Below are positions 36,070 to 57,204 of a stretch of DNA of 64,000 nucleotides, one piece after another. The notes beneath the pieces are model-generated. The model ran no database searches. It was not told the DNA's origin and was given only the letters and a program-made list of their open reading frames with translations. Within the stretch, counting starts at the first letter, position 1. Each line of letters begins with the position of its first letter. This DNA comes from an uncultured Gammaproteobacteria bacterium. GTDB taxonomy: Bacteria; Patescibacteriota; Patescibacteriia; SBBC01; CAIJZX01. The stretch covers positions 9,634-73,633 of the forward strand of contig CAZFGG010000003.1 in NCBI GenBank assembly GCA_964518425.1, given 5' to 3'. Both the position numbers and the translations under genes were made by a program.

Positions 36070-36429
36070 TTAGAGGTGAGGCCAAAAAATGAGTAGGCCA
36101 ATAATAATTGCCGCCATCGTTGTGATGAGTACGGCTGCGGCCATGAAGTCCTTAATCACTCGGACATAGGGGTGAACCCGCGGTTCCAAGAGACCAGTGA
36201 ATCGTTCAACAATCGTGTTGACGAGCTCTAGATTGAGGATGGTACTGATGACCAGGATAAGGATGATTGCCTCAAGTCGACTGACGCCGAAGAACAGCAT
36301 GGCTAGCACGACCACCCCGGCCGCCACTAGATGAATGCGAAAACTGTTTTCCGTCGCGATCGCTTGGCGCAATCCCTGGCGAGCATAGCCGAAGCTGCGG
36401 CGAAAGCGGGACCAGCTAATCGTTGTCAT
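36070..36429 (-). CDS. dgkA: Prokaryotic diacylglycerol/undecaprenol kinase
   Basis: 119 aa, 3 TM; FRIHL and ELVNTIVE motifs of the DAGK_prokar family. Confidence 0.8.
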   Translation of the reverse strand: MTTISWSRFRRSFGYARQGLRQAIATENSFRIHLVAAGVVVLAMLFFGVSRLEAIILILVISTILNLELVNTIVERFTGLLEPRVHPYVRVIKDFMAAAVLITTMAAIIIGLLIFWPHL

Positions 36430-36866
36430 GGGTGGAGGAGGTGTTCGTACCGTTGCCAGCGACGTTGCTCGGCAGGCGTCTGATGATCCAGGTTCAGCAA
36501 GTGAATGAGGCCATGCTCCAGGAGAAAACGTAGGTGCTGGCGATACGATCGATTGTGCAGCCGAGCTTCCGACCGAATAACGGCCGGACAGAGAATAATT
36601 TCACCCCACAACGCTTGGCTGCCTTCAGCGATCGGAAGTCGCGGATAGTGAAAGGATAAGACGTTGGTCGGTTTATCCTTTCGTCGGTAGGTCCGATTCA
36701 GCTGGCGACTTCTGGCCGGCCCAACAATGCTGATCGACAGCGCTCCCGCATGTGCCGGTAAACGTCGTCGAGCCGTGGCCGCCCAGGATGTTAGCGTCCG
36801 ATCGCTGACCCCGCTGACGGCTAGTTGACGAACATCAATGCGCCCGGCAGGTTTAGCTAGCGACAA
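36426..36866 (-). CDS. ybeY: rRNA maturation endoribonuclease YbeY
   Basis: LLEHGLIHLLNLDH = HGxLHLxGxDH zinc-binding motif. Confidence 0.85.
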   Translation of the reverse strand: MSLAKPAGRIDVRQLAVSGVSDRTLTSWAATARRRLPAHAGALSISIVGPARSRQLNRTYRRKDKPTNVLSFHYPRLPIAEGSQALWGEIILCPAVIRSEARLHNRSYRQHLRFLLEHGLIHLLNLDHQTPAEQRRWQRYEHLLHP

Positions 36867-37923
36867 GTTTGAAGCTACGAACGATCACGTCAAACGTGGT
36901 TCGATAATTGACTTGCGTTAATGAACCGGTGTTGTACTGGATGCTGTAAACTTTCGTATCTTTGAACAGATAGGCCGTGCTCTGGTCTTCGCTGTAGATG
37001 CCTTCTAACCCGTTGACCGCAAAGGTTGTTAGCTGATCGGTGTTGGCCGCAGGGTTATTTGTTTTGTACCAGTCCTTCGGCGCTAATCGATTTGGATTGT
37101 CGTTGATCGCGACTTGGAAAAATTCTCCCGTTTGCTGCGTCGGCGTCACGAGGAGTCCACCGCTCTGATCAGCGGTTGCCGTCCAGCTGGTTGGAATAAG
37201 AAGACTGTAGATTTTCCCACTGTCTTCGACTCGCTTAACCAACCCCGACGTTTCGAGCTGACCAGCGCCTTTAGGATTATATCCGAGGTAAAGTTCTCCG
37301 ACGATCGTGCCATCAGCCCGAACTTGTTTGCCATCAATAAACCCATCAGCGTCGGTATCAGCTTTCGCCGCATCGGTTCCGTAAACCGCTTCTTCAACGT
37401 CGGTCAGTCCATCACTATCCGTGTCAGTTGACGAGGGCAGGGGTCCAGTCGGAGTAACAGTCGTATTCGTATTGGCATTTGTGCTGACGTTAGTATTCGC
37501 GTTGGCGGTGATGTTCGTATTCTGATTCAAGTTGCCATTCGCGTTCTCGTTGGTGATGCTATTCGTATTTTCATTGGCCGCGTTGACCGACGTGTTCGTA
37601 TTTCGATTCACCCGGTTGGTCACGACAACGTTGACCGAATTGCTGTTCGTCTTGTTCAGCACATTCTGGAAGACGTACAGACCGGCGAACCCAAGCCCAC
37701 CCAGGACAGCCACCACAATAAGAATAATGACCAGCTTTTTCGTCGAATTTGATCCGGCCGGAGGCCCTCCAGCGGCGCGGAATCGTTCCGGCATGGAATG
37801 CACCTGCGGCGCCATGTTGGGCGATGGGGGCGGAGTCATCCCCGGGGTTGGAGGAGTCATGCCGGGAGAGGGAATGATCGGATTCAATGGATTAGAGCTT
37901 GGTTGTGATTGGTCTTCAAACAT
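36853..37923 (-). CDS. Membrane-anchored secreted protein with an Asn/Thr-rich low-complexity linker, thrombospondin-type-3 (TSP3) Ca-binding repeats and a C-terminal beta-rich domain
   Basis: TDTDSDGLTDVEEAVYGTDAAKADTDADGFIDGKQ TSP3-like repeats; NxNTN low-complexity tract. Confidence 0.5.
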   Translation of the reverse strand: MFEDQSQPSSNPLNPIIPSPGMTPPTPGMTPPPSPNMAPQVHSMPERFRAAGGPPAGSNSTKKLVIILIVVAVLGGLGFAGLYVFQNVLNKTNSNSVNVVVTNRVNRNTNTSVNAANENTNSITNENANGNLNQNTNITANANTNVSTNANTNTTVTPTGPLPSSTDTDSDGLTDVEEAVYGTDAAKADTDADGFIDGKQVRADGTIVGELYLGYNPKGAGQLETSGLVKRVEDSGKIYSLLIPTSWTATADQSGGLLVTPTQQTGEFFQVAINDNPNRLAPKDWYKTNNPAANTDQLTTFAVNGLEGIYSEDQSTAYLFKDTKVYSIQYNTGSLTQVNYRTTFDVIVRSFKLVAS

Positions 37924-37934
37924 ACTGGCGGGGG

Positions 37935-38453
37935 TTATTTAGTTGGTGACTGATGAATAGCTTGATTGACATCAAATAGAGTACCACTTCCATTCGGATT
38001 CGTCCCGCGCCGGACTTCGAGTCCATCCGAAGCGCCATCATTATCGGTGTCAGGATTGAGGGGGTTGGTGTGATAAATCTTGACCTCGTCGTAGTCAGAT
38101 AGACCGTCCCCGTCGGTGTCTGCTTGCGCTGGATTCGTCCCGATTTTCTCCTCATCCGCGTCCGGCAATCCGTCGAGGTCTTGGTCGGCAATCGTCGTGA
38201 CCGAATACCGCCGGAAGGTGGGGTTGGTTTTTTTGCCCGGCGTCGTTTGGTTTCCGACCACGACCGGAGTCGCTGTGTTAGATGTCGGTGTCGATCGATT
38301 GGATTGAAGGAGCGGGGCTAACGCGACGATCCCAACCAAAACCACCACCGTCCCTCCTAGTATAACGAATCGGCGGTTACGCGCCAACCACGACTCCGCT
38401 ACCGGTTCGGGTGGCAGTTGGGGGTACTGGCTGGAATTCAGATCATCAGCCAT
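37935..38453 (-). CDS. Small membrane-anchored protein with thrombospondin type-3 repeats
   Basis: DQDLDGLPDADEEKIGTNPAQADTDGDGLSDYDEVKIYHTNPLNPDTDNDGASDGLEV. Confidence 0.55.
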   Translation of the reverse strand: MADDLNSSQYPQLPPEPVAESWLARNRRFVILGGTVVVLVGIVALAPLLQSNRSTPTSNTATPVVVGNQTTPGKKTNPTFRRYSVTTIADQDLDGLPDADEEKIGTNPAQADTDGDGLSDYDEVKIYHTNPLNPDTDNDGASDGLEVRRGTNPNGSGTLFDVNQAIHQSPTK

Positions 38454-38455
38454 GG

Positions 38456-41400
38456 TTATGAGGAGGTCAGTTTATAATTGAAACAGCCACAACTCGAACC
38501 AGCTTGCGACGTGCAGGGGTTATCGGGCGGTTGCGGGCTTGGGAAGAACGTTGATTCCATATGTCCATAGAGGGAGTACGTCGAGCCATCAGAGTGGTAG
38601 AGATAGACATGGGAATTCGATGGACATTGGAACGCGTGCTGCGGTTCATTCCAGCAGGTCGAGCCATCATACCCACTAGGACAGGCCGGGCTAAAGGTAT
38701 TCGCTGGATCGGTCGACAAAGATTTATTCAGGGTTTGTCCAAGCGTCGCCTGCCAGGACGGCCAGGACGATGTGCTGAAGCCTGGTAAGTAGGTTCCGCT
38801 TTGGAGGGTCGGGTAGCTGCCGTGTAAAGTTTTGTAATTATCGAGGGCAACCTTGACCGAGGCCAGGTCCTGTCCCCGCTTCGTGTCGTTGAGAATTGCC
38901 TGCTTGGTAAAGCTATCTTGGTTGATGTTGAACATGAGCTGACTCGTCATTTGATCATAGATCTGTTTCGTCGCGTCAGAAGCATTGTTTGAGTTGTAGT
39001 CGAAGACAAACATCAATCCGGTCGGCGTGCCGCTGGTACTGACATCCGTCACACCAATGTAGGTTGTCGTGCCGGTCCGGACCGCCGGATAACCGCTGAC
39101 CGAGGTGGTCGCGGCACCAGTTTGCGTCGGGAAGCGCTGAATGAACCAGTCGTAGGGCGACAATATTTGCGGGTTGTTGAAGATCAGAATACCAATGGTA
39201 TCGCGCGATGCCTGCGATTCTTTGAAGAAAAAGCTTTTGAGCCGCGTTGGATCTTGGCTAGCTGATGCATCGATGACTGGGTAAGAGAAGTTCGGTAAAA
39301 GCTGCGTGTTGTTTTGTCCGCGGCAGTAAAAGAGTTTGAAATTCCAAGTACTATCGGTATACCCGGAGTTGGCGGGTTGACCAGGGACATCCCACGGATT
39401 GTCACAGATATCCACGTTGATATCTGTTCGCCCGGTCCGCTCAGGTTTATCGTTTTGATTGAGGCTATTGAATGTCACTTTGGCCTTGGCTTCAGCGTAG
39501 GTCTTGCCGTTGGCCTTGGCCGTAACAACGGCCGTACTGGCCAAGAGGTTTTTGGTCGTCGGATCCATAACGGCCGTCGCGACCGCGTCATTTCCCGACA
39601 GCCATGACCAGTCCCAGCTGTAGACTTGGTCAATGTTCTGCAACTGTTCGCCATTGGCGGCGTAAGCTTTGGCGACTGGCGTCGGCGCTGCGGTTTGGTT
39701 GACCGCGGTCAGGAGATAGGTGTTCTCCAGAATCCCGACGTGATCGAGCGTACAAATGTTCGCTCCGGTAGTAAATTTCAGCGGCGAACCGCCGACGTCA
39801 GCCAGAACTCCTTTATCACTACGCAGCGATGTCTGACCAGCGGTCGTCGTTAAGAAAAATTGCTGCGCCGCGCCGGCCGTCAGTAACCCTGGGCTATAGG
39901 TTATCGTCGATTGGTTATTCGCTGTCGTCAGGCCAATGCTTCCGTTCACGACCGTCGCACCGTCCTGATATCGAACCGTCGAGGGCGTGACAGTTGATCC
40001 GTCGAGGGGCGTGCTGAACGTCACTTGAGCGGCCGTGTTCCGACAGGCGTTTGGGCTGTTTTGGGGCGGCTGGAAACTGATGATCTTCGGTTTCAATTGG
40101 CAACAGCCAATTGACGCACCGGCCGGCAACGCGCAGCCGCGCGGCGCATTCGTCGCATCGTTGCTGCAGACCGCCGCGTCGCTAGCACATTGATCAGCCA
40201 AGGGGCAGCCTCCCGGACCTGAACCATTTGGATCGTTCACAAAGAAAGGCCAGGGGTTCGACTCCGCACCATCGTTCATCACCCGGACCTCGCTATCCCC
40301 TAGCCCGGCCAAAGCCGGGACGGCCGTATCAATGGTCGCCTTAGAACCAATGTCGCTCCAACTATTGTAGGTCGACATGACAACTGGGGTAGCACCAGAG
40401 ATAAGTTTCGTGACGTTCACTTGGTCCTGGGCCGTGCGCTTGGCTGGTTCATCGGCGCCAAAGCGTATGCCGGTCGCGGTCAACGAGCTGTTGGGCAGAC
40501 CATTACCCGGATTGAGGTGACAGAGTCCAGGATAGACCTTGGTATTGACGGTAAAATCATTAGGAGAGGTCGCTTGTTTGCTGTCGCCACGGGTAATTTG
40601 GACTGGGCCCGTCACGGCGTCATTCGTTGGGTCATTCGTCGGCGAATCGAGCTTCGGTACCTCCCGAACAATCCGTTCATTTTCCCAGGTGGCAGCCGCT
40701 GAACCACAAATAGTGGTATTGGGATCAAGGCCATCTTGATCGTCAGCTGCACCGGCACCGCCGAGGAAAGTCACTTTGCTCTTGGCCGTATCATATCCGC
40801 CAAACCAACACCCCTTGATTGTCGTCCATGTCCCGACGGAACCATTGTCTGGTTCGAAACCATTGACGACTGGTGTGCACGCATTATTGACACAGGTTGA
40901 GGCTGAACAGGACTCGCCGTACTTATTTTTCTTGCATTGTGAGTCGTCAGTACAGGACGTTGGGTTATACGTAATCTTGACCGTATTTGATTGTTTACCA
41001 AGTACCTTCGTGAAGACGCCTTCTTGTCCAACCGCCGGACCAGTCGGCGGGTTGGCGGCAATATTTTGGACTGGGGAGGTTCCGGTGATCGATGTTGATT
41101 GCAGATCAAAAACATGTGGCTCGCTGCTCGTCGCCGGGGCCGTCCAATCGAACGTTTCGCTTTGATTGACGATGTGACAGGCAGCATCAACGACGTTTGC
41201 CGGCAGAGCCAGGGAGAACGGCGCCTGCTGGAAGGTTGCGTCTGATTGCTGGATAACGACTCCGCTGATTTGACACCCTTGGGTACTGGTCGTGAATTGC
41301 CAAGTATACGGTGCCGACAAAGCTTTACCACCCGCGGACGGATCAGCTTTCACACCGGTCGTGATCGTTACTTGGTAGAGCGTGTTTGCCGTCAAAGGAT

Positions 41401-44152
41401 TCGTCGGTTTCAGGAGGAAGGACTTTGTTCCCTGCTGGGTGACTGTATATGCCACTGTACCAGCACAGGTCGTGGTGTTCGTACAAGAATTCAGGATGAT
41501 ATTCGTAGTGTTGATCGTCGAGGCATCCATGCCTAACGTAAAATCAGCGGAAATATCGGCCGTCAAACAGACATTATTGTCACCGTGATACGGATTCGGG
41601 CTAGGCGTAATTCCTGACTGAACGTTGCAGGCCGGATTATCAACGACCGTAGGCACTCCCGTGACCGGCGGTTGAACGTCGAAGATGACGGGATTACTCT
41701 TGATGACACCTTGCTCAACTCGGACAGTACTTTGGCCAATCGATGTCCCCACCGCAACGTTGACTTGGTCGATTTGGGTGTTATGCCAGTTCGTGGCCGG
41801 GTTGGTTATCGGCCAACCGGATACTGGCGGGTAACCACTCGCCGTGACCTTGCTTTGCCCAGCAGTGTAGGCTCCAAATCCATCGCCGGAGGCCGATAGG
41901 GTTGTACCAACCTGACCTTGATTGGGATTGAGCGAGTAGAGGCAGATACCATTACCGCCACTTCCAGCATCGAGTAGGAAATTCGAGGTAGGTGTGATGG
42001 CGCTCTTGAGAACACCGATTTGGCCACCATAATCAACGCTGACCTGGTAGGGATGTGGTCCCCCAGCCGGCAGCGACCCGGCCTGAACTTTAGAAACAAT
42101 GCTCTGCTGATTCCAAGCACCATTCGGAACCGTTTGGTTTACCCCGCCCAAGGTCAATGTATCATTGGCACCTGGCGTCAGAATGCCTGGTTTCAAGAAA
42201 TATGAACCGAGGACGGAAACGCAAGCCCCGTTCTGACCTTCGCCTGGTTGGACGCTGGTCACGACTGGCGGTTGGATGCACTTATCGGCGGCCGCAACGG
42301 TAAAGCTCCAGGGTCCTTGCGACGGAGCGTCAGCGAGTGGGTTTGCCTGCGTTCCGGTATCACCATAGTTGAGTGTGTCGCCGTTGACATTGATCGTCAA
42401 ATCAGAGTTAACGCCGACATGATAGGTCGTTCCGGGAGTCAGGTCGACGCTCTCCGGAGTAAAGGCATAGATCTTACAGGTGTTGAGTTGGTTGTTCGGA
42501 TCGAACTGGTCAACCACCGAGAAACTCCTGTTCATGTCCGGAAAGTTTCGGCCATTGCTCACATGTGATCCCGGCGTACCCGGATTACAGGCGAACACTC
42601 CACTCCCCACTTTCCACATCGAGGTGTTGTATTGAATAAACACTTTCGTTGAAGGGCAGGCGTTGGCAAAGCCATCGGTTGGATAGACTTGGGCCACGCC
42701 GGGCGTAACGTCATTGGTTTCAAACACCCAGCTATATGGCGCGGTCATGGCCGTACCGCACAGGTTCCGGAAATTCTCGACCACGACTTTGTACCAGGTA
42801 AAGCTGTCAAACAATGTGTCCTTCAGCTGCAGCCACGCACCCATCCCGTCTGGGCTGCGCCGAATATCAAACAGGGTCGGGTCTAAGGGCTTGGTCGCAT
42901 CATACGTCCCGCCGGTCCCATCATTCGGATCGGGCGGTGCCGTAAACTTGTAGACGCGGAAGTTTTGGGTCGTGATTGAGGCTTTATCAATAGCGTTATT
43001 GAATTGAATGTTCAGCGCCGCATTGCGTGGAATATTCCGGTCAGGATGGGCCGTGGAGTTAGCGGCCAAGTAGGCTGACGATGGTTGCGTACTTACTTCC
43101 TGCAAGGCCGGCCCATCCGTATCGCTCCCGGCTTTGAAGATCCATGTCAAGGTACCATCCGTACTTTCTTGGCAATGTTCACCGGGAAAACTATCGCCAA
43201 TAATCGGAATTCCCGGTTGCTGCTGACAATGGAGGAGAACGCGCTGAAGTGTATCGCTGAGCGCGGATTTAGCGGTATTCCGCGGAATGGTTAAGCGGTA
43301 GAACCGGCCCGCTTCAAAATATCGATTGTCTGGGCTGGCCGGGTCTGTTGAAAATGACAGGTGATAGAACGTAACGGTATTTTGATCAGCGAGCCATTCC
43401 GCCTTTGTGCTCCCCTTGGCGCCGGCCGGAGTAGTGCCGGCCGTGAAGACTTGGTTATCAACGGGTTTCGGTGTGCCAGGGTTATTACAATGAGACGCGT
43501 CGCTGGAAGCATCACACGCTTCGACGATCAACTTCGGATGGTCGACGTCACCGTTGGCTTCGACCGCGGCTTTGACCGAGGCGGCGGTCACATCCGTATT
43601 GAAGGTCAAGCTGATATTGCTCGATCGGGGGACATTCTGGCTGAAATCGGGGGCGGCCGCACAAGAGGTAATCGCCGTCAAATCGAACGTGCTCGTCGTT
43701 GAGCAGAGTGGGCAAGGCGGGTTGCAGTTTACAACGCAGGGGGGATTATTATTTCCGGTCACGTTCGTCGCCGTTTTAACGACGAACAAGACAATCGCCC
43801 AGGCCAGTAGAATAATGACCAGGCCAATAGCGGCCTGGAGAATAACTTGTTTGGCTTTCTCAACCCGCTGTTCATTCCCAGCCGCGGTCAACCACAAGTA
43901 GCCACCATAGATCATGTACGCCACGGCCACCAGTGTGACAAAACCTAAAGCCCAGCGGATGATATTGAGAACGGTTTTTTGTAGGTCCGCGTTGCCTAAA
44001 CCAACCTGGCTACCAACCGATTCAATACTAAACGTCGTCTGGGCGAAGAGATGATGCGGTCCAATCAGCAGCGTCACCAACGCCACCGCTACCCCGATGA
44101 AGAGGCCGACGGCGAAGGGATGGCGCGGTCTCAGCATGGAGAGACGTCGCAT
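38456..44152 (-). CDS. Giant (1898 aa) cell-surface protein with a VirB2/TrbC-pilin-like N-terminal double-TM hairpin
   Basis: Signal peptide, then IIRWALGFVTLVAVAYMIYGGYLWLTAAGNEQRVEKAKQVILQAAIGLVIILLAWAIVLFVV (two TM helices around a short loop). The rest is Cys-containing and beta-rich, consistent with Ig-like domains. Confidence 0.6.
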   Translation of the reverse strand: MRRLSMLRPRHPFAVGLFIGVAVALVTLLIGPHHLFAQTTFSIESVGSQVGLGNADLQKTVLNIIRWALGFVTLVAVAYMIYGGYLWLTAAGNEQRVEKAKQVILQAAIGLVIILLAWAIVLFVVKTATNVTGNNNPPCVVNCNPPCPLCSTTSTFDLTAITSCAAAPDFSQNVPRSSNISLTFNTDVTAASVKAAVEANGDVDHPKLIVEACDASSDASHCNNPGTPKPVDNQVFTAGTTPAGAKGSTKAEWLADQNTVTFYHLSFSTDPASPDNRYFEAGRFYRLTIPRNTAKSALSDTLQRVLLHCQQQPGIPIIGDSFPGEHCQESTDGTLTWIFKAGSDTDGPALQEVSTQPSSAYLAANSTAHPDRNIPRNAALNIQFNNAIDKASITTQNFRVYKFTAPPDPNDGTGGTYDATKPLDPTLFDIRRSPDGMGAWLQLKDTLFDSFTWYKVVVENFRNLCGTAMTAPYSWVFETNDVTPGVAQVYPTDGFANACPSTKVFIQYNTSMWKVGSGVFACNPGTPGSHVSNGRNFPDMNRSFSVVDQFDPNNQLNTCKIYAFTPESVDLTPGTTYHVGVNSDLTINVNGDTLNYGDTGTQANPLADAPSQGPWSFTVAAADKCIQPPVVTSVQPGEGQNGACVSVLGSYFLKPGILTPGANDTLTLGGVNQTVPNGAWNQQSIVSKVQAGSLPAGGPHPYQVSVDYGGQIGVLKSAITPTSNFLLDAGSGGNGICLYSLNPNQGQVGTTLSASGDGFGAYTAGQSKVTASGYPPVSGWPITNPATNWHNTQIDQVNVAVGTSIGQSTVRVEQGVIKSNPVIFDVQPPVTGVPTVVDNPACNVQSGITPSPNPYHGDNNVCLTADISADFTLGMDASTINTTNIILNSCTNTTTCAGTVAYTVTQQGTKSFLLKPTNPLTANTLYQVTITTGVKADPSAGGKALSAPYTWQFTTSTQGCQISGVVIQQSDATFQQAPFSLALPANVVDAACHIVNQSETFDWTAPATSSEPHVFDLQSTSITGTSPVQNIAANPPTGPAVGQEGVFTKVLGKQSNTVKITYNPTSCTDDSQCKKNKYGESCSASTCVNNACTPVVNGFEPDNGSVGTWTTIKGCWFGGYDTAKSKVTFLGGAGAADDQDGLDPNTTICGSAAATWENERIVREVPKLDSPTNDPTNDAVTGPVQITRGDSKQATSPNDFTVNTKVYPGLCHLNPGNGLPNSSLTATGIRFGADEPAKRTAQDQVNVTKLISGATPVVMSTYNSWSDIGSKATIDTAVPALAGLGDSEVRVMNDGAESNPWPFFVNDPNGSGPGGCPLADQCASDAAVCSNDATNAPRGCALPAGASIGCCQLKPKIISFQPPQNSPNACRNTAAQVTFSTPLDGSTVTPSTVRYQDGATVVNGSIGLTTANNQSTITYSPGLLTAGAAQQFFLTTTAGQTSLRSDKGVLADVGGSPLKFTTGANICTLDHVGILENTYLLTAVNQTAAPTPVAKAYAANGEQLQNIDQVYSWDWSWLSGNDAVATAVMDPTTKNLLASTAVVTAKANGKTYAEAKAKVTFNSLNQNDKPERTGRTDINVDICDNPWDVPGQPANSGYTDSTWNFKLFYCRGQNNTQLLPNFSYPVIDASASQDPTRLKSFFFKESQASRDTIGILIFNNPQILSPYDWFIQRFPTQTGAATTSVSGYPAVRTGTTTYIGVTDVSTSGTPTGLMFVFDYNSNNASDATKQIYDQMTSQLMFNINQDSFTKQAILNDTKRGQDLASVKVALDNYKTLHGSYPTLQSGTYLPGFSTSSWPSWQATLGQTLNKSLSTDPANTFSPACPSGYDGSTCWNEPQHAFQCPSNSHVYLYHSDGSTYSLYGHMESTFFPSPQPPDNPCTSQAGSSCGCFNYKLTSS

Positions 44153-44173
44153 CGGTAATCGTTGTTTCGTTGG

Positions 44174-47625: not shown

Positions 47626-48315
47626 TTAACGTCGAGACAGGCGCCAGGCTAAGCGAAGGTCTTCAATAATGATGGACCAGGAGAATTTTGATTGGCCTGC
47701 CCGTCGATCGGTAAAGACCATCGGCACTTCGGCCACCCGGGCTCCCGCTCGCCGCGCCAGCCAGGTCATTTCCATCAACCACGCGTATCCGCGCCCCTCC
47801 ATTGTCTGTGCCAGGATCCGGTTCAAGATGTCAGCCCGCCAAGCTTTGTAGCCAGTACTCCAGTCGTGAATGTCCCATCCAAGCAGAAGCCGGATATAGA
47901 CATTCCCGAAAGTGCTGATCCAGCGTCGAAACCAAACAATATTGACCCGGCCACCAGGCACATAGCGCGAAGCAATAACCACATCATGGTTATCGAGTGC
48001 GGCCAAGAGCGCCGGAATGAGGCTGGGCGGATGTGATCGATCAGCGTCGAGTTGAATAATCGCCTGCGCGCCATGTTCCAGGGCATAACGAAAACCTGCT
48101 TGGTAGGCGGTGCCCAGCCCAGCTTTAGCTGGGCGATGGATGACATGAATCCGAGGATGCTGCTGATGGAGTTCATCCGCTAGCTGCCCCGTCCCATCGG
48201 GTGAATTGTCATCAACCACGACGACATCAACGTCTCCAATGCTGAAAATTTCGTCGATCAGCGGCTTGAGGTTGTCCCGCTCGTTGTAGGTCGGCGTAAC
48301 GATCCAGGTGGTCAT
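47626..48315 (-). CDS. GT2 polyprenol-phosphate glycosyltransferase (DPM1-like)
   Basis: VTPTYNERDNL, VVVDDNSPDGT and QLDADRSH GT-A motifs. Confidence 0.8.
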   Translation of the reverse strand: MTTWIVTPTYNERDNLKPLIDEIFSIGDVDVVVVDDNSPDGTGQLADELHQQHPRIHVIHRPAKAGLGTAYQAGFRYALEHGAQAIIQLDADRSHPPSLIPALLAALDNHDVVIASRYVPGGRVNIVWFRRWISTFGNVYIRLLLGWDIHDWSTGYKAWRADILNRILAQTMEGRGYAWLMEMTWLARRAGARVAEVPMVFTDRRAGQSKFSWSIIIEDLRLAWRLSRR

Positions 48316-49991
48316 GACGATCGACGGCGGCTCGGGCGCCGGGGTCGAGAGCGACGCGTCGGTCGTTCAAGATCGCGCTCGATATTTTCCAATGATTCTT
48401 CAACTTCAAGATCGGACAACTGCTTCCGACGAACCTGTCGGCGAAGTGTATCAATTTCTTCTTCCGCCCTGAGATCCCGTTGGTGCATCCGTTGGACAGC
48501 CACCAGGAGCCGGATCATGGTCCAGGTAATCAACCCTGCGAAAAAGATCAGAGCCAGCGTGGCGACCGGAAGAAATGCTACGGTGGCAATTGGCCGACCG
48601 CCCAGCAGAACGGAGTGCCCGCTCACAACGAGTGGGACTGGATCGCTCGCCACGCTCACTTGGCCGTCAGGGCCCATTGCAACAGCGGTGACGTTGTAAT
48701 GACCGGGACGAAAAACCTGATCGGTCGCGAGGGTCCACGGCGCTCGAACCGTTACCCCGCTCGCTAGCGCTGAAGGATCAACTTGTCCAGCGACCGATTG
48801 TCCAACCGCCTGACCATTAACATAGACCGTGACCGTATCTCCGGCGTTAGCGGTTCCCTTCACCTCCAGGCGGTCAAGGAGAAGCAGTGGACTGGTCAGA
48901 CTGGTGATCGTAGGAGCCTGGTAGCCTTCTTGTCCAACGGTCACTTCACTCGCGGTACTATTTCCAGCTTTATCAACCGCCGTGACCACGACCGTATGTT
49001 GCCCAGATTTCAGATCAGTCAGGGTAGCCGGACTAGAAACCGTCGTGGCCGGAACGCCGTCGAGGGATACTGTGTAGTGATCAACTCCGCTCGTGGCATC
49101 AGTCGTTTCGAACTGGACCTGGGGAGTCGGGTCTGATGGTCCCCGATCACGGATGACGGAGAGCGTGAAGTGGTCTGGTGCCGTATGGTCGTATTGCAGA
49201 CGGAATCGCTTCAGTCCGCCCCAGCCATCGCTGGTATGACTCTGGAGTACAAAATACCATACACCATCTGCGGGGAGAGAAACGCTGGCGGCAGTCAACG
49301 TTGTTTCGGTGAATTGATCGGGCGTAGCATTCGCGTCTTGGGTCAGAGCATATCGAAAACTCGTCACTCCGGATGGCTGTGACCACGTCATACTGGCTTG
49401 GCTCTGCTGGTACCAAGCATTTTCGCTTGGATGAGTAGTCGAGCTCACCGATGGCAGCGTCGGACTAGGGTTCGACGGAGCGGGTGTCGGAGTCGAGGCG
49501 GCCGTGACGGTGATTGAGGCTGTCCCGACACTCGTTAAAATATCAGTACCTTGCCCGTCATTCGCCAAGACCTTAGCTCCGCTGATTGAAAGATCCGCTT
49601 GGCCAACGGCGGTGGCTCGAAAAGTTGCGGAAATGATTTTCCCTCCGCTACCCGTATATCCTGGACTTGGTAAGCCGCCAGAAAGGGTAATACGTCCAGT
49701 GCTATTCGAACCGCTTGGCTGGACTGCCCAAAAGCTAAAAATTGATCCGCTCGTACTGAGGGAACTCAGTTGGAGGCGATTGGTTGAAAAAACAATGGTC
49801 GCTTCGGCAGCATTAATGGCTTGTCCGCCGGTGTTCACTTTTAAGGATAAGGTCACCGTCGAGCCAACTGCAAGAGATTTGCTGGCTGGGCTAAAATAGA
49901 GGCTCGCCCCAGCAGCCTTGGCGGGCTGCGCCCAAACGCTCACCAGTGTCCAGGCAAGCATGACCGTCAGTAAAGAAATTCGTCGGATCAT
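48312..49991 (-). CDS. Cohesin-domain surface protein with a C-terminal TM anchor and charged coiled-coil tail (paralog 1)
   Basis: Signal peptide; cohesin-like about 140-aa beta-sandwich (ASLYFSPASKSLAVGSTVTLSLKVNTGGQAINAAEATIVF...ISATFRATAVGQADLSI); second beta domain (GVWYFVLQSHTSDGW); C-terminal TM plus RRKQLSDLEVEESLENIERDLERP. Confidence 0.6.
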   Translation of the reverse strand: MIRRISLLTVMLAWTLVSVWAQPAKAAGASLYFSPASKSLAVGSTVTLSLKVNTGGQAINAAEATIVFSTNRLQLSSLSTSGSIFSFWAVQPSGSNSTGRITLSGGLPSPGYTGSGGKIISATFRATAVGQADLSISGAKVLANDGQGTDILTSVGTASITVTAASTPTPAPSNPSPTLPSVSSTTHPSENAWYQQSQASMTWSQPSGVTSFRYALTQDANATPDQFTETTLTAASVSLPADGVWYFVLQSHTSDGWGGLKRFRLQYDHTAPDHFTLSVIRDRGPSDPTPQVQFETTDATSGVDHYTVSLDGVPATTVSSPATLTDLKSGQHTVVVTAVDKAGNSTASEVTVGQEGYQAPTITSLTSPLLLLDRLEVKGTANAGDTVTVYVNGQAVGQSVAGQVDPSALASGVTVRAPWTLATDQVFRPGHYNVTAVAMGPDGQVSVASDPVPLVVSGHSVLLGGRPIATVAFLPVATLALIFFAGLITWTMIRLLVAVQRMHQRDLRAEEEIDTLRRQVRRKQLSDLEVEESLENIERDLERPTRRSRPRRPSRRRSS

Positions 49992-51412
49992 AGGGACGGG
50001 GCGGGTGGTGGAGGGGGCATGGTCGGAGGCGGAGGCGGAATCGTTGGCGAGACAGGCGTCGTTACCGTTGGAGGGACCGTCATATCGAGGTTGTGTTGAA
50101 CGAGTACTTGCGCTCGTTGAAGTTCATTTAATTCCCGCTGCAACTGATCAGATTTTTTTCGAGCGTCTTTCTCTAACGTCGCTAAGTCATGCTGGAATGT
50201 CGAGCGAATCCGGAGACGACGCACGATGAGGATCGTCAAGGCAATCAAGAGCAAGACCCCGAGTCCGAGAACGACAGCGTTAGCAACTGCTGGATTTCGC
50301 AATAATGGTACCCGGGCGAAGAACGATAGTCCAGCGGCCGTGACCGTTAATGTGACGCTGCCATCGGTCGCGTTGCCGGCCCGGTCGAAAGCCCGAACTT
50401 GCCATGCATACTTGCCAGCGGCCAAGGGGTTGATGATGTAGGGACTGGATGTTTCAACAAACAGCGTGTTGCCGGAACCGTCGCCACCGAGCGTCACTTG
50501 TCGAACTTCATAGTGATCGAGTCCCGAAGCTGCGTCCGTCGTTAAAAAACGTAAGGTTGTCGTATCTTGAGTGGTGACAATTGATTGGTCGATTTTCGGC
50601 GTGAACCCCGCGGGGGGCGTCGTGTCGATCTGGACCGGGTAGGACGTCGTTCCGCCCCAACTGACCGTCAGGGCCCGGATGTGAAAATACCAAACGCCAT
50701 CACTCGTAGCCTTGACGCTCGCTGAGGTTTGGGTCGTATCCACTTTTTCGTCGGGTGTCGACTTGGCCGTTTGATCGAAACTGTAGCTGTAGCCAAGTGC
50801 GCTGTCGATCGGTTCCCAGGCGAGTTGGACCTGGGAATTGCTATACCACTCATTACTATCCGGATGGGTCGGACTAGTCACGACCGGGCCAGCAGGGGGA
50901 GGGGTTTTGAGAGTAAGTTGAGCGGTCCCACTGCTGGTTAAGATGTTTGTTCCTTTGCCGTCGTTCCGTAAAACTTGTGAGGTCGGAGCAAACTTTATGG
51001 TGGCCGGGCCGGGTGATTTAACGCGAAACGTAACCGTGCTAATAACGCCGCCACTCGTTTTAATACCAGGGTTTGGCAGGCCTCCTTGAAAATGAATCGT
51101 GCCGTCGGTGTTAGAATACGACGGGGCAGTGACCCAAATCGAGATAAACGACGTACTGGCGACCGGATTAACGACTTGGAGTTTATCAGCCGGAAAAAGA
51201 ATATCAGCTTGGACCGCGTTGATGGCTTCCCCGCCAGTATCAACCAGGAACGACACGTCAATCGTACTACCGACTTCGTAGGTACCAGCTAGCGGTGAGA
51301 TGCTCAAGCTGGCGCCAGAGGCATACACAATTCGCCCCGTCGCGAGAAGTAGGATCAAGCTGAGCCCGACCGTCAGTGACCGACGCCCTGAGCCTGTGAT
51401 CTGTCGGACCAT
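49988..51412 (-). CDS. Cohesin-domain surface protein with C-terminal TM and Pro-rich tail (paralog 2)
   Basis: Same architecture (GASLSISPLAGTYEVGSTIDVSFLVDTGGEAINAVQADILF...; GVWYFHIRALTVSWGG; C-terminal TM plus a coiled-coil and PPPPPTMPPPPP). Start set to MVRQITG (51412) to avoid overlapping paralog 3. Confidence 0.6.
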   Translation of the reverse strand: MVRQITGSGRRSLTVGLSLILLLATGRIVYASGASLSISPLAGTYEVGSTIDVSFLVDTGGEAINAVQADILFPADKLQVVNPVASTSFISIWVTAPSYSNTDGTIHFQGGLPNPGIKTSGGVISTVTFRVKSPGPATIKFAPTSQVLRNDGKGTNILTSSGTAQLTLKTPPPAGPVVTSPTHPDSNEWYSNSQVQLAWEPIDSALGYSYSFDQTAKSTPDEKVDTTQTSASVKATSDGVWYFHIRALTVSWGGTTSYPVQIDTTPPAGFTPKIDQSIVTTQDTTTLRFLTTDAASGLDHYEVRQVTLGGDGSGNTLFVETSSPYIINPLAAGKYAWQVRAFDRAGNATDGSVTLTVTAAGLSFFARVPLLRNPAVANAVVLGLGVLLLIALTILIVRRLRIRSTFQHDLATLEKDARKKSDQLQRELNELQRAQVLVQHNLDMTVPPTVTTPVSPTIPPPPPTMPPPPPAPSL

Positions 51413-51434
51413 AGGCGGTGAGTATACCACAAGC

Positions 51435-52556
51435 TTAGCGCCGACGTTGGCGTCGCGTGAAGAACAAAACTCCGCCGACAACGATGACGACAGCGGCTGT
51501 CGCAAGGCTATCGCGGACGAGAACCGAGTGTCCAGTCAGGTGAATGGTTGCCGCACGTTCATTACCAGCCTGATCGCGAACGATAATCATCGCGTCATGG
51601 CCGCGCCACTCCGGCTTGATGACGAGCGGACTGGTCACTATTCCTTTGTCCACGTTGCCGACGCGAAGGTGGGCATCAGCTACCCCCGAGGTGGTGTCCG
51701 TGGTCGTCCAACTCATCGTCGGTTGCCCGTTCGTTTGGCTCGACGGGAGCAGCAGGATAGAAAATGGTGATGGCGGTTCGCGATCGAGGAGGAACCTGTA
51801 CTGACTCACGCGAGACCAAACACCATCCCCAACTTCACTTTTGATGGTGAAAAAATACACGCCGTCGCTCAAGCCATCGTAGTCAACCGAACCTGGCATT
51901 GGTTCGGCGGTGTCATCGGGGACATCATCAATTTTTGAAGATAACCGGTAGCTATAGATCGTTCCGGATGGAATCGTCCAACGAACATGAATCGTGTCAA
52001 TGGCCGTCCATCGATCAGGTGTCGGGATCGTCGAGGCATCGAGCGGAATACTCTGGACCAGCGTGTCGGCCAGCATCACATCGAGAGGTGAGCTCGTCAG
52101 ATCTAAGCGAGTTCCCTGACCATCATTCAGGTAGGCTGATGATATTTTTTGTTGGAGTGAGATCTGCCCGATGCCCGAGGCGAGACTGCGGAAGACCAGC
52201 GTCGCGACGGGAGCATCAATGGCGACTAATCCATGTGGCCGCCCAGCAACGAGACTAACCGTGCCGCTGTGGTTGTCCCATCCTGGTTCTTCCGGCCAGA
52301 GTGTCCAAATCGACTGCTGCCGCTCAACGCGCAGAAGTTCAAATTGAGTGCTGCTGAAGGCCAGGTGAAGATCGACCGCATTAATGATTCGGCCAAGACT
52401 ATCCATCCGGACCTCAACGCTGACGGTATCACCGGCCCGAACAAGGCCCGCCGGTCCAACGAGATGAACGTTCGGACTGGAGGCAGCCATGGCCGGCCGA
52501 ATGAATGCCAACCCAGCCACGGCGATGACGATGATGGCGTATCTTATCCGGTCCAT
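51435..52556 (-). CDS. Cohesin-domain surface protein with C-terminal TM (paralog 3)
   Basis: VHLVGPAGLVRAGDTVSVEVRMDSLGRIINAVDLHLAF...; GVYFFTIKSEVGDGVW; C-terminal TM plus RRQRRR. Confidence 0.55.
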   Translation of the reverse strand: MDRIRYAIIVIAVAGLAFIRPAMAASSPNVHLVGPAGLVRAGDTVSVEVRMDSLGRIINAVDLHLAFSSTQFELLRVERQQSIWTLWPEEPGWDNHSGTVSLVAGRPHGLVAIDAPVATLVFRSLASGIGQISLQQKISSAYLNDGQGTRLDLTSSPLDVMLADTLVQSIPLDASTIPTPDRWTAIDTIHVRWTIPSGTIYSYRLSSKIDDVPDDTAEPMPGSVDYDGLSDGVYFFTIKSEVGDGVWSRVSQYRFLLDREPPSPFSILLLPSSQTNGQPTMSWTTTDTTSGVADAHLRVGNVDKGIVTSPLVIKPEWRGHDAMIIVRDQAGNERAATIHLTGHSVLVRDSLATAAVVIVVGGVLFFTRRQRRR

Positions 52557-53863
52557 TGGAAGAGCATAATACTAAAGTCTGTCAGGTCAACGCGACCATC
52601 GTGATTGATGTCCGCCCGGCTGTTACTCGGATTCGTCTGGCGCCAGAAGAACAAGAGGATACTAAAATCGACGATGTTGACCTGGCCATCACCATTCAGG
52701 TCGGCCGGCGGCTTGCCATCGAACAAGCCCAGTGGGTTCACCGCGAAGGTCACGACCGCGCTCGCTTCGGAGGCAACACTACCACCGAGCACGGCCCGGG
52801 CCTGAGCTGTGTGTGTTCCAACACCTAAGGCTGTTGTATCAACTGATTTTGACCAGCGTCCTTGATCATCTGGATTGAGCGTAAATGACGTCGCTTGGAC
52901 TGAGTGGACGGTAAGTGTCAGGGCGCTGTCTGGAGTCGTCGTACCGGAAATAAGGACCGGCGTACCAATCTTAACGGTCCTGGTATTAATCGCGATCGAG
53001 GGACCAAGAAAGACGCCGCTAATGAAGGTCGTGGTGCTCGGGCTCAACGTTAAAGCAAAGGTGACTGGGCTCAGGACATTCTGCTGGTCATCGGTACCAT
53101 CGACTTCATAGACGACGGCTCCGGTCGGCTGATCGGAGAGGGTAATCGAAAACCTTGCTTGCGCATCAGCCGGCGTCGTGTTCACTAATTGACCATTACG
53201 GTTGATGGTCACCGTCGCGGTCGGAGCGGCATACCCGCTGAAGATGACGGTTGGGTTGGTCGGACCGGGCGGGGTGGTTTCTACCACTTCCGCTGACACC
53301 ACAACTTGGTCACTGCTGAGAACCGATAAAAAAAACTGGAAAGTATCAATTGGTGTTACGCCATTGGTGGTCGTCAGGTTAACAATCAGTCCCTGGGCCG
53401 GTGGCGGCGTTCCCAATTTAGCAATTGACCCGTCCGTCACGGACCAGCCATAGAGGGTTCCGGCGACCAAGGGACCGACCCCACTGACCGTGATGGTGTC
53501 AACGCTGCTCGAGCCGCTGCCTTGAACACAGTCGGCAGTGAGTGTTCCCGGTAGCGGCGTCGCGTTTTCTGTCACCCCCTCCGGACTACTGATGCCGCTG
53601 ACGCTCAAATCTACACCGGCCGTCCGGCACCACTGGCCGTCATCGCCGTCGGGAAAATCAAAAACAACGGTATTTGAAGAACCCGGGAGAGAAGTAGCTG
53701 GATTAAAAAAAACTTGATGAACTTCGCCCCCAGCCAAGTTGGCCTGTTGTCGCATCAAGTAATCCCGAACTTGGCTCAAACTACCAGCGTGAGCTCCGTG
53801 GGCGGAGAAGGCAAAAAACGTGATGACGACGAGACAGGCTAATCGCCAACGTTCCAGCCTCAT
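52544..53863 (-). CDS. Secreted dockerin-containing protein
   Basis: C-terminal tandem dockerin Ca-binding repeats DLNGDGQVNIVDFSILLFFW and DINHDGRVDLTDFSIMLFQW. The N-terminal about 150 aa (DDGQWCRTAGVDLSVSGI) is homologous to the N-termini of 54897..55979 and 56018..57118. Confidence 0.75.
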   Translation of the reverse strand: MRLERWRLACLVVITFFAFSAHGAHAGSLSQVRDYLMRQQANLAGGEVHQVFFNPATSLPGSSNTVVFDFPDGDDGQWCRTAGVDLSVSGISSPEGVTENATPLPGTLTADCVQGSGSSSVDTITVSGVGPLVAGTLYGWSVTDGSIAKLGTPPPAQGLIVNLTTTNGVTPIDTFQFFLSVLSSDQVVVSAEVVETTPPGPTNPTVIFSGYAAPTATVTINRNGQLVNTTPADAQARFSITLSDQPTGAVVYEVDGTDDQQNVLSPVTFALTLSPSTTTFISGVFLGPSIAINTRTVKIGTPVLISGTTTPDSALTLTVHSVQATSFTLNPDDQGRWSKSVDTTALGVGTHTAQARAVLGGSVASEASAVVTFAVNPLGLFDGKPPADLNGDGQVNIVDFSILLFFWRQTNPSNSRADINHDGRVDLTDFSIMLFQWTG

Positions 53864-53869
53864 GGAGAA

Positions 53870-54859: not shown

Positions 54860-54896
54860 GGTTGTGTCCCCTCCAGGATTAATACTGTTGGTTCTT

Positions 54897-55979: not shown

Positions 55980-56017
55980 ATCGTCCAGGCTAGAATGAAA
56001 AGTAGTTAGAGGGTGTA

Positions 56018-57118: not shown

Positions 57119-57204
57119 AATTGGAAAATAGTCTTGTTTTTCTTTGTTTTTACTTATTTCTGTCTATAGTATAGCACTTCCTGACAAAATGGTCAATCCA
57201 CAGG

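What the first reader, a model, noticed from the sequence alone, without database searches (positions are those of the whole stretch)
36853..44152. Giant surface protein with a VirB2/TrbC-pilin-like N-terminus, co-oriented with two thrombospondin-type-3 (Ca-binding) repeat proteins
The 1898-aa ORF begins with a signal peptide followed by two hydrophobic helices separated by a short loop (…AYMIYGGYLWLTAAGNEQRVEKAKQ…). This is the hallmark topology of type-IV-secretion/conjugative pilins, and it is followed by about 1700 aa of beta-rich, Cys-containing domains.
- Immediately downstream and co-oriented are two small membrane-anchored proteins made of TSP3 calcium-binding repeats (DxDxDGxxDxxE).
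- The group ends at ybeY-dgkA.
A pilin-like membrane hairpin fused to a huge extracellular stalk suggests a filament or attachment organelle of unknown type.
Basis: inference. Interest (0 to 1): 0.6.

Follow-up and report, generated by a model that had tools for sequence, protein, structure and literature searches.

The report
Giant surface protein on a pilin anchor
A 1898-residue cell-surface protein of an ultra-small (Patescibacteria/CPR) bacterium is held in the membrane by the same two-helix module that forms this group's small type IV secretion pilins; this "pilin with a giant passenger" design is widespread in sequence databases, but I found no description of it in the papers I could search.

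Summary
ORF 38456..44152 (-) encodes 1898 aa: a signal peptide, a two-helix hairpin scoring above Pfam's threshold for T4SS_pilin (PF18895), then about 1770 aa of disulfide-rich Ig-like ectodomain. Two membrane-anchored genes follow, then ybeY-dgkA. The first has three strong TSP3 repeats; the second has only one sub-threshold repeat.

New findings:
- The hairpin is by far the most conserved part of the protein and is near-identical to stand-alone 100-140-aa pilins.
- The distal end is a beta-sandwich domain followed by a GspG/pseudopilin-like head. The third gene carries a homologue of that sandwich domain.
- The three genes occupy one fixed position (SPase-HisRS-HIT-S21-YqeY-[trio]-YbeY-DgkA-FtsA-FtsZ) in about 50 species of Kerfeld-, Uhr- and Komeilibacteria.
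- No T4SS machinery lies in the window or within 10 kb in relatives. Published tables list VirB4 in most Kerfeldbacteria MAGs.

Best reading: a "modular" VirB2-type pilin, that is, a Sec-exported giant fibril or adhesin whose anchor can pack with the small pilins. Whether it enters a pilus is not shown; a plain membrane anchor is a serious rival. I rate it a new variant of a known kind, interest about 0.6.

The parts
38456..44152 (-). Giant gene, 1898 aa (stop codon included): modular VirB2-type pilin / giant surface protein
   Evidence: ORF list; translation; Pfam PF18895 + Big_5; 61 collinear homologues
44042..44152 (-). Residues 1-37: Sec signal peptide (basic n-region, hydrophobic core, ..LFA|Q site)
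   Evidence: Hydropathy; AxA-type sites at the same position in orthologues. Cleavage itself is inferred.
43748..44041 (-). Residues 38-135: T4SS_pilin module. Conserved 'TFSIESxG..GLG..DL' lead-in, TM helix 1 (~60-86), cytoplasmic loop TAAGNEQRVEKAKQ, TM helix 2 (~102-126).
   Evidence: PF18895 33.6 bits, above GA 26.6; NF045849 36.2 bits, below cutoff 40; AF2 hairpin; 81-82% mean identity across 48 orthologues; 43-65% identity to 20 stand-alone pilins; hhalign vs VirB2 Prob 85%
39476..43747 (-). Residues 136-1559: Cys-rich neck (C139/143/147/150) and a long stalk of Ig-like (Big_5, IPT/TIG-like) modules
   Evidence: Big_5 at about res 483-592, 853-955 and 1354-1437; TIG domains precomputed in orthologues; invariant Cys throughout
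38927..39217 (-). Residues ~1646-1742: conserved distal beta-sandwich domain, homologous to the C-terminal domain of the 356-aa protein; weakly PsbP/Mog1/DUF1795-like
   Evidence: 50-63% identity block; AF2 pLDDT 86-93 in this stretch; weak Foldseek hits only; hhalign vs p356 C-terminus Prob 95.9%, E 6e-9
38459..38920 (-). Residues ~1745-1898: C-terminal GspG/pseudopilin-like head domain (long helix plus small sheet), with no hydrophobic alpha1-N and no prepilin signal
   Evidence: 11 of 22 family members hit PF08334 T2SSG below threshold but in register; hhalign vs 6 real GspG Prob 85.9%, E 5e-6, control 0.2%; AF2 helix at 188-218 of the model
37935..38453 (-). 172-aa type II membrane protein: short cytoplasmic N-terminus, one TM (~29-48), three TSP3 Ca-binding repeats
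   Evidence: TSP3_bac 82.9 bits, 3 repeats; translation; conserved position in most of the syntenic loci
36853..37923 (-). 356-aa membrane protein: Pro-rich cytoplasmic N-terminus, one TM (~64-85), Asn/Thr-rich linker, one weak TSP3 motif (~167-184), C-terminal domain homologous to the giant's distal sandwich
   Evidence: Translation; TSP3_bac 17.3 bits, below 25; weak PsbP hits; hhalign to giant res 1646-1742; conserved position
36070..36866 (-). ybeY and dgkA: housekeeping genes that bound the trio downstream. Context only, not part of the system.
   Evidence: Pfam YbeY and DAGK_prokar

Best explanation
The giant is a "modular" VirB2-type pilin of a Kerfeldbacteria-like Patescibacterium.

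Proposed steps:
1. It is exported by Sec and its signal peptide is cut by signal peptidase I.
2. It sits in the cytoplasmic membrane as a helix-loop-helix hairpin. The N-terminus is outside, the short basic loop is in the cytoplasm, and the C-terminus is outside.
3. That topology puts the 1770-aa passenger on the cell surface.
4. The passenger is a disulfide-stabilised rod of Ig-like modules, tens of nm long. At its far end it carries a conserved two-part head: a beta-sandwich domain plus a pseudopilin-like domain. The head probably binds a conserved ligand or partner.
5. The hairpin is under the same strong sequence constraint as the stand-alone 100-140-aa pilins of this phylum. I therefore infer it makes the same contacts they do, packing side by side with them in the membrane pool, or as an occasional or terminal subunit of the T4SS-type pilus. 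The passenger would then be displayed as a long-reach adhesin or spacer.
6. The two downstream proteins are co-inherited partners in the same envelope layer: a Ca-binding TSP3 protein, and a protein carrying a copy of the giant's distal sandwich domain.

Shown: the architecture, family membership of the hairpin, its conservation, the synteny, and the domain homologies.

Inferred: signal-peptide cleavage, topology, co-assembly with small pilins, the adhesive role, and any physical partnership among the three proteins.
For: - PF18895 scores above the gathering threshold, and hhalign to real VirB2 gives Prob 85% over helix 1.
- Hydropathy and AF2 both give a signal peptide plus a hairpin.
- The hairpin has 81-82% mean identity across 48 orthologues, against about 20-45% over most of the ectodomain. 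That is far more than a plain TM anchor needs.
- Stand-alone pilins such as P0070 (128 aa) share the whole module, including the lead-in and the '..ARTxxNVT' exit, and stop there.
- Sixty-one collected proteins are tandem concatenations of 2-13 hairpins, which argues that hairpins pack side by side in one orientation.
- 102 collected proteins of 1272-3722 aa have the same design of one N-terminal hairpin plus a passenger, with varied passengers such as VWA, Big_7 and FN3.
- 46 near-invariant Cys point to an extracellular, disulfide-bonded rod.
- The distal head is the second most conserved region.
- The p356 C-terminal domain is homologous to the giant's distal domain (Prob 95.9%).
- The trio is syntenic in the roughly 35-40 of 52 species-level loci that have enough flank on both sides.
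- Literature: Patescibacterial T4SS clusters carry essential VirB2-like pilins (PMC10633639). PF18895 pilins were found in 1948 assemblies, and no PrgB-type adhesin was found (PMC12102498). VirB4 is reported in 8 of 11 visible Kerfeldbacteria MAGs.
- Established knowledge of F and T pili: both pilin termini face outward and the loop faces the lumen, so a C-terminal passenger is topologically compatible. This rests on my own knowledge.
Against: - No T4SS machinery gene lies in the 64-kb window or within 8-10 kb of five orthologues.
- The gene sits in a housekeeping and cell-division synteny block, not in a T4SS locus.
- The trio looks universal in this clade, while VirB4 is reported in only about half of the visible Uhrbacteria MAGs. 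MAG incompleteness confounds this comparison.
- A 1770-aa passenger on every subunit is sterically incompatible with a homopolymeric VirB2-type helix, so at best it is a rare or terminal subunit.
- The profile of the hairpin finds no solved VirB2/TraA chain by sequence, and Foldseek returns only generic helical hairpins.
- PF04956 itself is not hit.
- There are no expression or localisation data.
Confidence: 0.45

Rival explanations
1. Plain anchor. The pilin hairpin has been co-opted purely as a stable membrane anchor. The giant, with the two TSP3/sandwich-domain proteins, is a constitutive envelope scaffold: an S-layer-like or spacer fibril that sets envelope geometry or general adhesion. 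It would work independently of any T4SS or pilus.
For: - The trio has a core-genome position between translation genes and ftsA/ftsZ in about 50 species, and is never next to T4SS genes.
- The ectodomain is collinear and conserved within Kerfeldbacteria, which is unlike a fast-evolving host adhesin.
- VirB4 detection in the clade is patchy.
- Steric arguments weigh against polymerisation.
- Ca-binding TSP3 partners fit a structural lattice.
Against: - An anchor alone does not explain 81-82% identity across the hairpin, including its cytoplasmic loop. Nor does it explain that the conserved motifs are those of the stand-alone pilins.
- Tandem-hairpin proteins imply hairpin-hairpin packing.
- More distant relatives swap ectodomain modules freely (VWA, Big_7), as adhesins do.
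Confidence: 0.35
2. Pilus-tip or nucleator subunit. The giant plays the role of VirB5 or of a tip adhesin. One or a few copies would cap a VirB2-type tube built from small pilins, giving a "barbed" tip that contacts the host cell.
For: - Patescibacterial T4SSs have VirB2-like pilins, but no VirB5 or PrgB-like adhesin has been found (PMC12102498; PMC12857230).
- Cryo-ET of a Saccharibacterium shows an 8.6-nm tube and a lance-like tube with a barbed tip (PMC11880426).
- The giant is a single-copy gene, and a mid-sized second PF18895-anchored protein lies next to it in 6 of 49 loci.
Against: - The cryo-ET organism belongs to a different class, and no link to PF18895 giants has been made.
- There is no genetic linkage to T4SS genes here.
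- This reading is entirely inferential.
Confidence: 0.12
3. Annotation or assembly artefact: a fused or chimeric ORF with no biological meaning.
For: None found.
Against: There are 61 full-length homologues, collinear from hairpin to C-terminus, in independent assemblies, at 24-63% identity and with conserved synteny.
Confidence: 0.01

Closest known systems
Patescibacterial VirB2-like T4SS pilins (Pfam PF18895; the essential pilin array in the Southlakia epibionticum T4SS cluster; arrays described in PMC12102498)
   Same: The N-terminal module is the same: signal peptide, conserved lead-in, two TM helices, and the GG[FY]xW[LM]TAxGNE..KAK loop. It scores above the Pfam threshold and is 43-65% identical to 20 stand-alone pilins.
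   Different: Those pilins are about 100-140 aa and end just after helix 2, and they are often in arrays or near virB4. This protein has about 1770 extra residues, is single-copy, sits in a housekeeping synteny block, and has no T4SS gene nearby.
Agrobacterium VirB2 / TrbC family (PF04956), F-type TraA
   Same: The same precursor plan (long signal peptide, helix-loop-helix, both termini outside). There is an in-register profile match over the pre-helix and helix 1 (hhalign Prob 85%, E 6e-6).
   Different: There is no direct HMM hit to PF04956 and no sequence hit to any solved pilin. Helix 2 did not align. Cyclisation or C-terminal processing as in VirB2/TrbC is not possible with a giant passenger.
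Modular type IV pilins of Streptococcus sanguinis (PilB with a vWA module, PilC with a lectin module; PMC8179133)
   Same: The design principle is the same: a pilin module with a functional, adhesive module grafted onto its C-terminus. A distant relative here even carries VWA domains (P0057).
   Different: The pilin superfamily differs (type IV pilin alpha1 helix versus VirB2-type hairpin). The passenger is also an order of magnitude larger here.
Cell-wall-anchored adhesins of Gram-positive conjugative T4SSs (PrgB) and giant Ig-repeat adhesins (SiiE, LapA/Bap-type)
   Same: A long rod of Ig-like repeats with a distal binding region. It could serve as the mating or contact adhesin for a monoderm-type T4SS.
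   Different: There is no LPxTG/sortase signal, no T1SS signal and no polymer-adhesin domain. Anchoring is by an N-terminal pilin hairpin, and export is by Sec.
GspG major pseudopilin / type IV pilin head domain (PF08334)
   Same: The last ~150 aa align to GspG positions 40-102: the alpha1-C helix, the 'YP' motif and the 'LP.DP' motif (Prob 85.9%).
   Different: It lacks the prepilin signal and the hydrophobic alpha1-N, so it cannot polymerise as a type 4 filament subunit. It sits at the C-terminus of a giant protein. All Pfam scores are below threshold.
Bacterial TSP3-repeat proteins (PF18884; Myxococcus CglD, MtsC/D)
   Same: The 172-aa protein has three canonical DxDxDGxxDxxE Ca-binding repeats.
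   Different: It is a tiny single-TM protein rather than a large lipoprotein or adhesin. NCBIfam scores to CglD/Mts are far below their cutoffs.

Membership tests
Pfam PF18895 T4SS_pilin (Patescibacterial VirB2-like pilins) | HMM score above the curated gathering threshold | tested here: met
   33.6 bits against 26.6, E 4e-8, res 59-122. The same family is precomputed on all 61 homologues.
Pfam PF18895 T4SS_pilin (Patescibacterial VirB2-like pilins) | Signal peptide followed by two TM helices joined by a short basic loop | tested here: met
   Hydropathy segments at 10-37, 60-86 and 99-132. AF2 hairpin H17-52/H57-96 of res 38-140, pLDDT 80.5.
Pfam PF18895 T4SS_pilin (Patescibacterial VirB2-like pilins) | Small protein (~100-140 aa) ending shortly after helix 2 | tested here: not met
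   The protein is 1898 aa, with about 1770 aa following helix 2. 102 collected relatives share this giant architecture.
Pfam PF18895 T4SS_pilin (Patescibacterial VirB2-like pilins) | Gene located in or near a virB4-containing T4SS cluster (true for 1135 of 1948 assemblies per PMC12102498) | tested here: not met
   No T4SS component was found among the window ORFs that were scanned, nor within 8-10 kb in L001-L005.
Pfam PF18895 T4SS_pilin (Patescibacterial VirB2-like pilins) | Polymerises into, or is handled by, a T4SS pilus machinery | not testable with these tools
   This needs experiments or multimer modelling. The source genome could not be retrieved to look for VirB4/VirB6.
TrbC/VirB2 family (PF04956) | Detectable sequence or profile homology to bona fide VirB2 | tested here: inconclusive
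   No PF04956 hit at E<=0.1. hhalign vs 7 real VirB2/TrbC gives Prob 85%, E 6e-6 over only 39 columns, covering helix 1. No PDB pilin was hit.
NCBIfam NF045849 Mbov_0395 pilin-like conjugal transfer protein (Mycoplasma ICE) | Score above the curated cutoff | tested here: not met
   36.2 bits against a cutoff of 40, res 57-127 over profile positions 9-79 of 80. Close to, but below, the cutoff.
Bacterial Ig-like (Big_5, PF13205) surface proteins | Big_5 domains above threshold | tested here: met
   94.2 bits, 3 stretches, best at 853-955. Further copies at about 483-592 and 1354-1437.
Type IV pilin / T2SS pseudopilin GspG (PF08334) | Class III (prepilin) signal peptide and hydrophobic alpha1-N | tested here: not met
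   The domain lies at res ~1745-1898, preceded by a soluble domain. The protein has no hydrophobic segment after res 132.
Type IV pilin / T2SS pseudopilin GspG (PF08334) | Head-domain homology (alpha1-C, alpha-beta loop, sheet) | tested here: inconclusive
   11 of 22 relatives hit T2SSG at 13-20.8 bits (cutoff 21), all in the same register. hhalign vs real GspG gives Prob 85.9%, with a control at 0.2%. Foldseek of the two-domain model did not return pilins.
TSP3_bac (PF18884) repeat proteins | Repeats above threshold | tested here: met
   172-aa protein: 82.9 bits, 3 repeats.
TSP3_bac (PF18884) repeat proteins | Repeats above threshold (second downstream protein, 356 aa) | tested here: not met
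   17.3 bits against a cutoff of 25, one stretch at 167-184.

The most novel reading that the evidence does not exclude
Patescibacteria build their T4SS-type pilus, or a pilin-based membrane platform, from small VirB2-like pilins plus giant "adhesin-pilins" such as this one. The adhesin that monoderm T4SSs normally encode separately would here be fused directly to a pilin subunit. That would supply the "missing" adhesin or tip of the essential Patescibacterial T4SS.

The protein would also be a double chimera. It has a T4SS-type pilin at the proximal end and a type-4-filament (pseudopilin-like) head at the distal end. With its two Ca-binding/sandwich-domain partners, it would form a conserved, vertically inherited host-contact organelle of the ABY1-type lineages.
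Probability: 0.2. Interest if true: 0.8.

Novelty: new variant of a known kind. Interest (0 to 1): 0.6.

Why it matters
The T4SS of Patescibacteria is essential for the epibiotic lifestyle in the one species tested. Its function is described as completely unknown (PMC11665869), and no adhesin has been found for it (PMC12102498).

This protein shows that the phylum's pilin module is routinely fused to giant, variable surface passengers. There were 102 such proteins among those collected here. It also occurs as tandem poly-hairpins.

Together these give concrete, testable candidates for how these cells present adhesins, and for what the "pilins" actually assemble into. The fixed three-gene module next to the division genes in about 50 species gives a well-defined target for structure prediction, metaproteomics and cryo-ET.

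Tried and rejected
- PDB sequence searches found nothing useful: the whole protein, the C-terminal profile and the hairpin profile.
- Foldseek of the hairpin model returned only generic helical hairpins at E>0.2, which is uninformative.
- Foldseek of the C-terminal model against the PDB gave only weak PsbP/Mog1/DUF1795-like matches (E>=3e-3, TM<=0.44). Against viral models it gave only two "lipoprotein" hits.
- My early idea that the C-terminus is a pilin head had no support from Pfam at default settings or from Foldseek. It regained moderate support from family-wide sub-threshold T2SSG hits and from hhalign.
- I looked for a second PF18895 module in the window and found none.
- The promoter and terminator scan of 35900-47600 was at chance level.
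- I tried to identify the source assembly so I could look for VirB4. The window proteins are not on record and the cluster carries no accession.
- I tested whether the upstream surface cluster (47.6-64 kb) has WxL domains. There was no hit.
- I considered an S-layer or scaffold role. I could not exclude it and keep it as the main rival.
- I considered a mobile-element or conjugation origin and rejected it: the locus is core-syntenic, with no relaxase, no coupling protein and no composition anomaly.

Full report
**Observation.** The three ORFs are exactly as reported: 38456..44152 (-) 1898 aa, 37935..38453 (-) 172 aa, and 36853..37923 (-) 356 aa. They are followed by ybeY (36426..36866) and dgkA (36070..36429) (Pfam). 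The genes are tightly packed, with gaps of 2 and 11 nt and then overlaps of 14 and 4 nt. Upstream on the same strand lie yqeY, rpsU (S21), a HIT protein, hisS and signal peptidase I; downstream lie ftsA, ftsZ, nrdR and a class II RNR. G+C is even across the region. The gene content is that of a Patescibacterium, and the closest named homologues are "Candidatus Kerfeldbacteria".

**N-terminus.**
- Hydropathy gives three hydrophobic segments: res 10-37, 60-86 and 99-132.
- The first has a basic n-region and ends ..LFA|QTT. Orthologues have AxA-type sites at the same place, so I read it as a cleaved Sec signal peptide (inference).
- Residues 59-122 score 33.6 bits on Pfam T4SS_pilin PF18895, above the gathering score of 26.6.
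- They score 36.2 bits on NCBIfam NF045849, the Mycoplasma ICE pilin-like conjugal transfer protein, just below its cutoff of 40.
- AF2 of res 38-140 gives a two-helix hairpin (pLDDT 80.5).
- A profile of this module (A2) aligned to seven genuine TrbC/VirB2 proteins, including Agrobacterium VirB2, gives hhalign Prob 85% and E 6e-6. The match covers 39 columns spanning the pre-helix and helix 1, in register.
- Direct tests against solved pilins were negative or uninformative.
Homology to classical VirB2 is moderately supported, and membership of PF18895 is firm.

**What the module is related to.**
- A full-library phmmer search with res 1-140 found 32,186 representative clusters at E<=1e-3.
- I classified 192 collected proteins. 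102 have one N-terminal module followed by a giant passenger (1272-3722 aa, median 2081). 25 are stand-alone pilins. 61 are tandem concatenations of 2-13 hairpins. Four did not fit any class.
- Stand-alone pilins such as P0070 (128 aa) share the whole module, including the 'TFSIESIG..GLG..DL' lead-in and the '..ARTxxNVT' exit, and then stop. The giant is literally a small pilin plus 1770 residues.
- In a 48-orthologue alignment, the hairpin (res 76-125) is 81-82% identical on average. Most of the ectodomain is about 20-45% identical, rising to 59-66% in two short blocks and to 50-63% in the C-terminal head.

**Ectodomain.**
- Big_5 Ig-like domains are significant (94 bits; best at 853-955, with further copies near 483-592 and 1354-1437). 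Orthologues also carry TIG domains.
- All but two of the 46 Cys are conserved in at least 77% of orthologues, and most are invariant. This fits an extracellular disulfide-bonded rod.
- The last 339 residues (alignment A1) have no Pfam or PDB sequence match. AF2 gives a usable model (pLDDT 77.5, pTM 0.78) with two subdomains.
- The first subdomain, about res 1646-1742, is a beta-sandwich with only weak PsbP/Mog1/DUF1795-like Foldseek matches.
- The second subdomain, about res 1745-1898, starts with a 31-residue helix. Eleven of 22 family members hit Pfam T2SSG below threshold but always in the same register.
- hhalign of that subdomain against six real GspG pseudopilins gives Prob 85.9% and E 5e-6 over 61 columns (alpha1-C, 'YP', 'LP.DP'). 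The control with the other half of A1 gives 0.2%.
- The distal tip is therefore probably a pseudopilin-like head lacking the hydrophobic alpha1-N.

**Downstream genes.**
- The 172-aa protein is a single-TM protein with three strong TSP3 repeats (82.9 bits).
- The 356-aa protein has a Pro-rich N-terminus, one TM, an Asn-rich linker, and one sub-threshold TSP3 motif (17.3 bits against a cutoff of 25).
- Its C-terminal domain is homologous to the giant's distal sandwich. A 47-orthologue profile gives hhalign Prob 95.9% and E 6e-9 over 88 columns, including the shared motif NP..L(S/A)P.DW(F/Y). That ties the third gene to the giant beyond mere adjacency.

**Context in relatives.**
- Five orthologous loci (24-45% identity) show the same order: SPase I-HisRS-HIT-S21-YqeY-[giant]-[TSP3]-[~350-390 aa]-YbeY-DgkA-FtsA-FtsZ-NrdR.
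- A scan of GTDB species representatives with A1 returned 52 loci. They come from Kerfeld-, Uhr- and Komeilibacteria, one "Paceibacter" and unclassified Patescibacteria.
- tblastn shows the same order and strand in the roughly 35-40 of these loci that have enough flank on both sides.
- In some lineages the giant is 2.7-3.7 kaa, with extra modules and an extra ~540-aa gene. In 6 of 49 loci a second, mid-sized PF18895-anchored protein lies directly upstream.
- No T4SS machinery is present in the window or in those flanks.
- The module is therefore a vertically inherited core element, not a mobile conjugation system.

**Literature.**
- Patescibacteria carry a monoderm (MPF_FATA-like) T4SS that usually lacks a relaxase. 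VirB2-like pilins (PF04956/PF18895) occur in 1948 assemblies, often in arrays. "No adhesins, such as PrgB, were detected" (PMC12102498).
- In S. epibionticum the T4SS and its pilin genes are essential (PMC10633639). The system's role is called completely unknown (PMC11665869).
- Table S1 of PMC12102498 lists VirB4 in 8 of the 11 Kerfeldbacteria MAGs I could see, and in about half of the visible Uhrbacteria.
- None of the papers I could search describes giant C-terminally extended PF18895 proteins.
- Type IV pili offer a precedent for the design: the "modular pilins" of S. sanguinis (PMC8179133).
- Cryo-ET of a Saccharibacterium shows an 8.6-nm tube and a barbed lance-like appendage of unknown composition (PMC11880426).

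**Mechanism.**
- Shown: a PF18895 hairpin with a signal peptide; a disulfide-rich Ig-like passenger; a conserved two-part distal head; two co-inherited membrane proteins, one Ca-binding and one sharing the distal domain.
- Inferred: Sec export and SPase I cleavage; an N-out/loop-in/C-out topology that displays the passenger; lateral packing of the hairpin with small pilins; an adhesin or spacer role.
- The packing inference rests on three things: the hairpin's extreme conservation, its identity with stand-alone pilins, and the existence of tandem-hairpin proteins.
- In F and T pili both pilin termini face outward (my knowledge of the published structures). A C-terminal passenger is therefore topologically allowed, but sterically only as a rare or terminal subunit.
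- I give the modular-pilin reading 0.45, a pure membrane-anchor/scaffold reading 0.35, a dedicated tip or nucleator role 0.12, and an artefact about 0.01.

**Verdict.** The anchor belongs to a known family, and giant Ig-repeat adhesins are known too. Four things appear undescribed in the literature I could search: the fusion, its distal pseudopilin-like head, the paralogous domain in the third gene, and the fixed three-gene module across about 50 species. I rate it a new variant of a known kind, interest 0.6.

Noticed in passing
window 47626..63972 (-): A second, separate surface-protein cluster lies directly upstream of signal peptidase I.
- It has a GT2 glycosyltransferase, cohesin-like and dockerin-bearing proteins, and a WxL-interacting-protein-like (DUF916-type) protein with a C-terminal TM.
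- Three ~370-560-aa proteins have a C-terminal TM and a charged tail.
- Two paralogous ~360-aa proteins and a 2255-aa Thr/Gly-rich repeat giant all share a ~150-aa C-terminal domain ending TTG(K/R)F.
- Dockerin and cohesin genes sit at the same place in relatives (L001, L002).
- A Pfam check found no WxL domain.
   Followed up: partly
proteins P0062, P0064, P0065, P0068, P0177 and others: Sixty-one proteins are tandem concatenations of 2-13 PF18895 pilin hairpins, about 100 aa per unit (for example P0062 with 6 units in 501 aa). Covalently chained pilin subunits imply side-by-side packing of hairpins. I found no description of them.
   Followed up: partly
window 841..4329 (-): A 1162-aa class I aminoacyl-tRNA synthetase (Ile/Val/Leu type) has a histidine-phosphatase domain (His_Phos_1, E 9e-33, res 505-656) inserted between the two halves of its catalytic domain.
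   Followed up: no
L005 6128..7999; L047, L049, L051, L055, L057: In 6 of 49 syntenic loci (Komeili-, Uhrbacteria and others), a second PF18895-anchored protein of 475-900 aa lies directly upstream of the giant. This makes a pair of modular pilins.
   Followed up: partly
L006 8156..10803: An array of four PF18895 genes (411 aa with a PG_binding_1 domain, then 102, 128 and 124 aa) lies next to a DUF2079 membrane protein and glycosyltransferases. No VirB4 lies within 10 kb.
   Followed up: no
L008, L014, L016, L019, L021 and other loci: Many third-party (TPA) MAG records titled "uncultured Gammaproteobacteria bacterium" carry this unmistakably Patescibacterial synteny block. The organism names in those records look wrong.
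   Followed up: no
window 16066..18361 (-) and 19739..20857 (-): ComEC is split into a Competence/DUF4131 ORF and an overlapping metallo-beta-lactamase ORF. Nearby is a 372-aa protein with two PsbP-like domains. PsbP-like folds thus recur in this genome's exported proteins.
   Followed up: no
window 11691..12164 (+) and 12201..12644 (+): Two adjacent small paralogous membrane-anchored proteins have near-identical N-terminal TM segments (..SxLPIAVMAxAIVAFLFVxxWA..) and Cys-rich ectodomains. Neither has a Pfam match.
   Followed up: no
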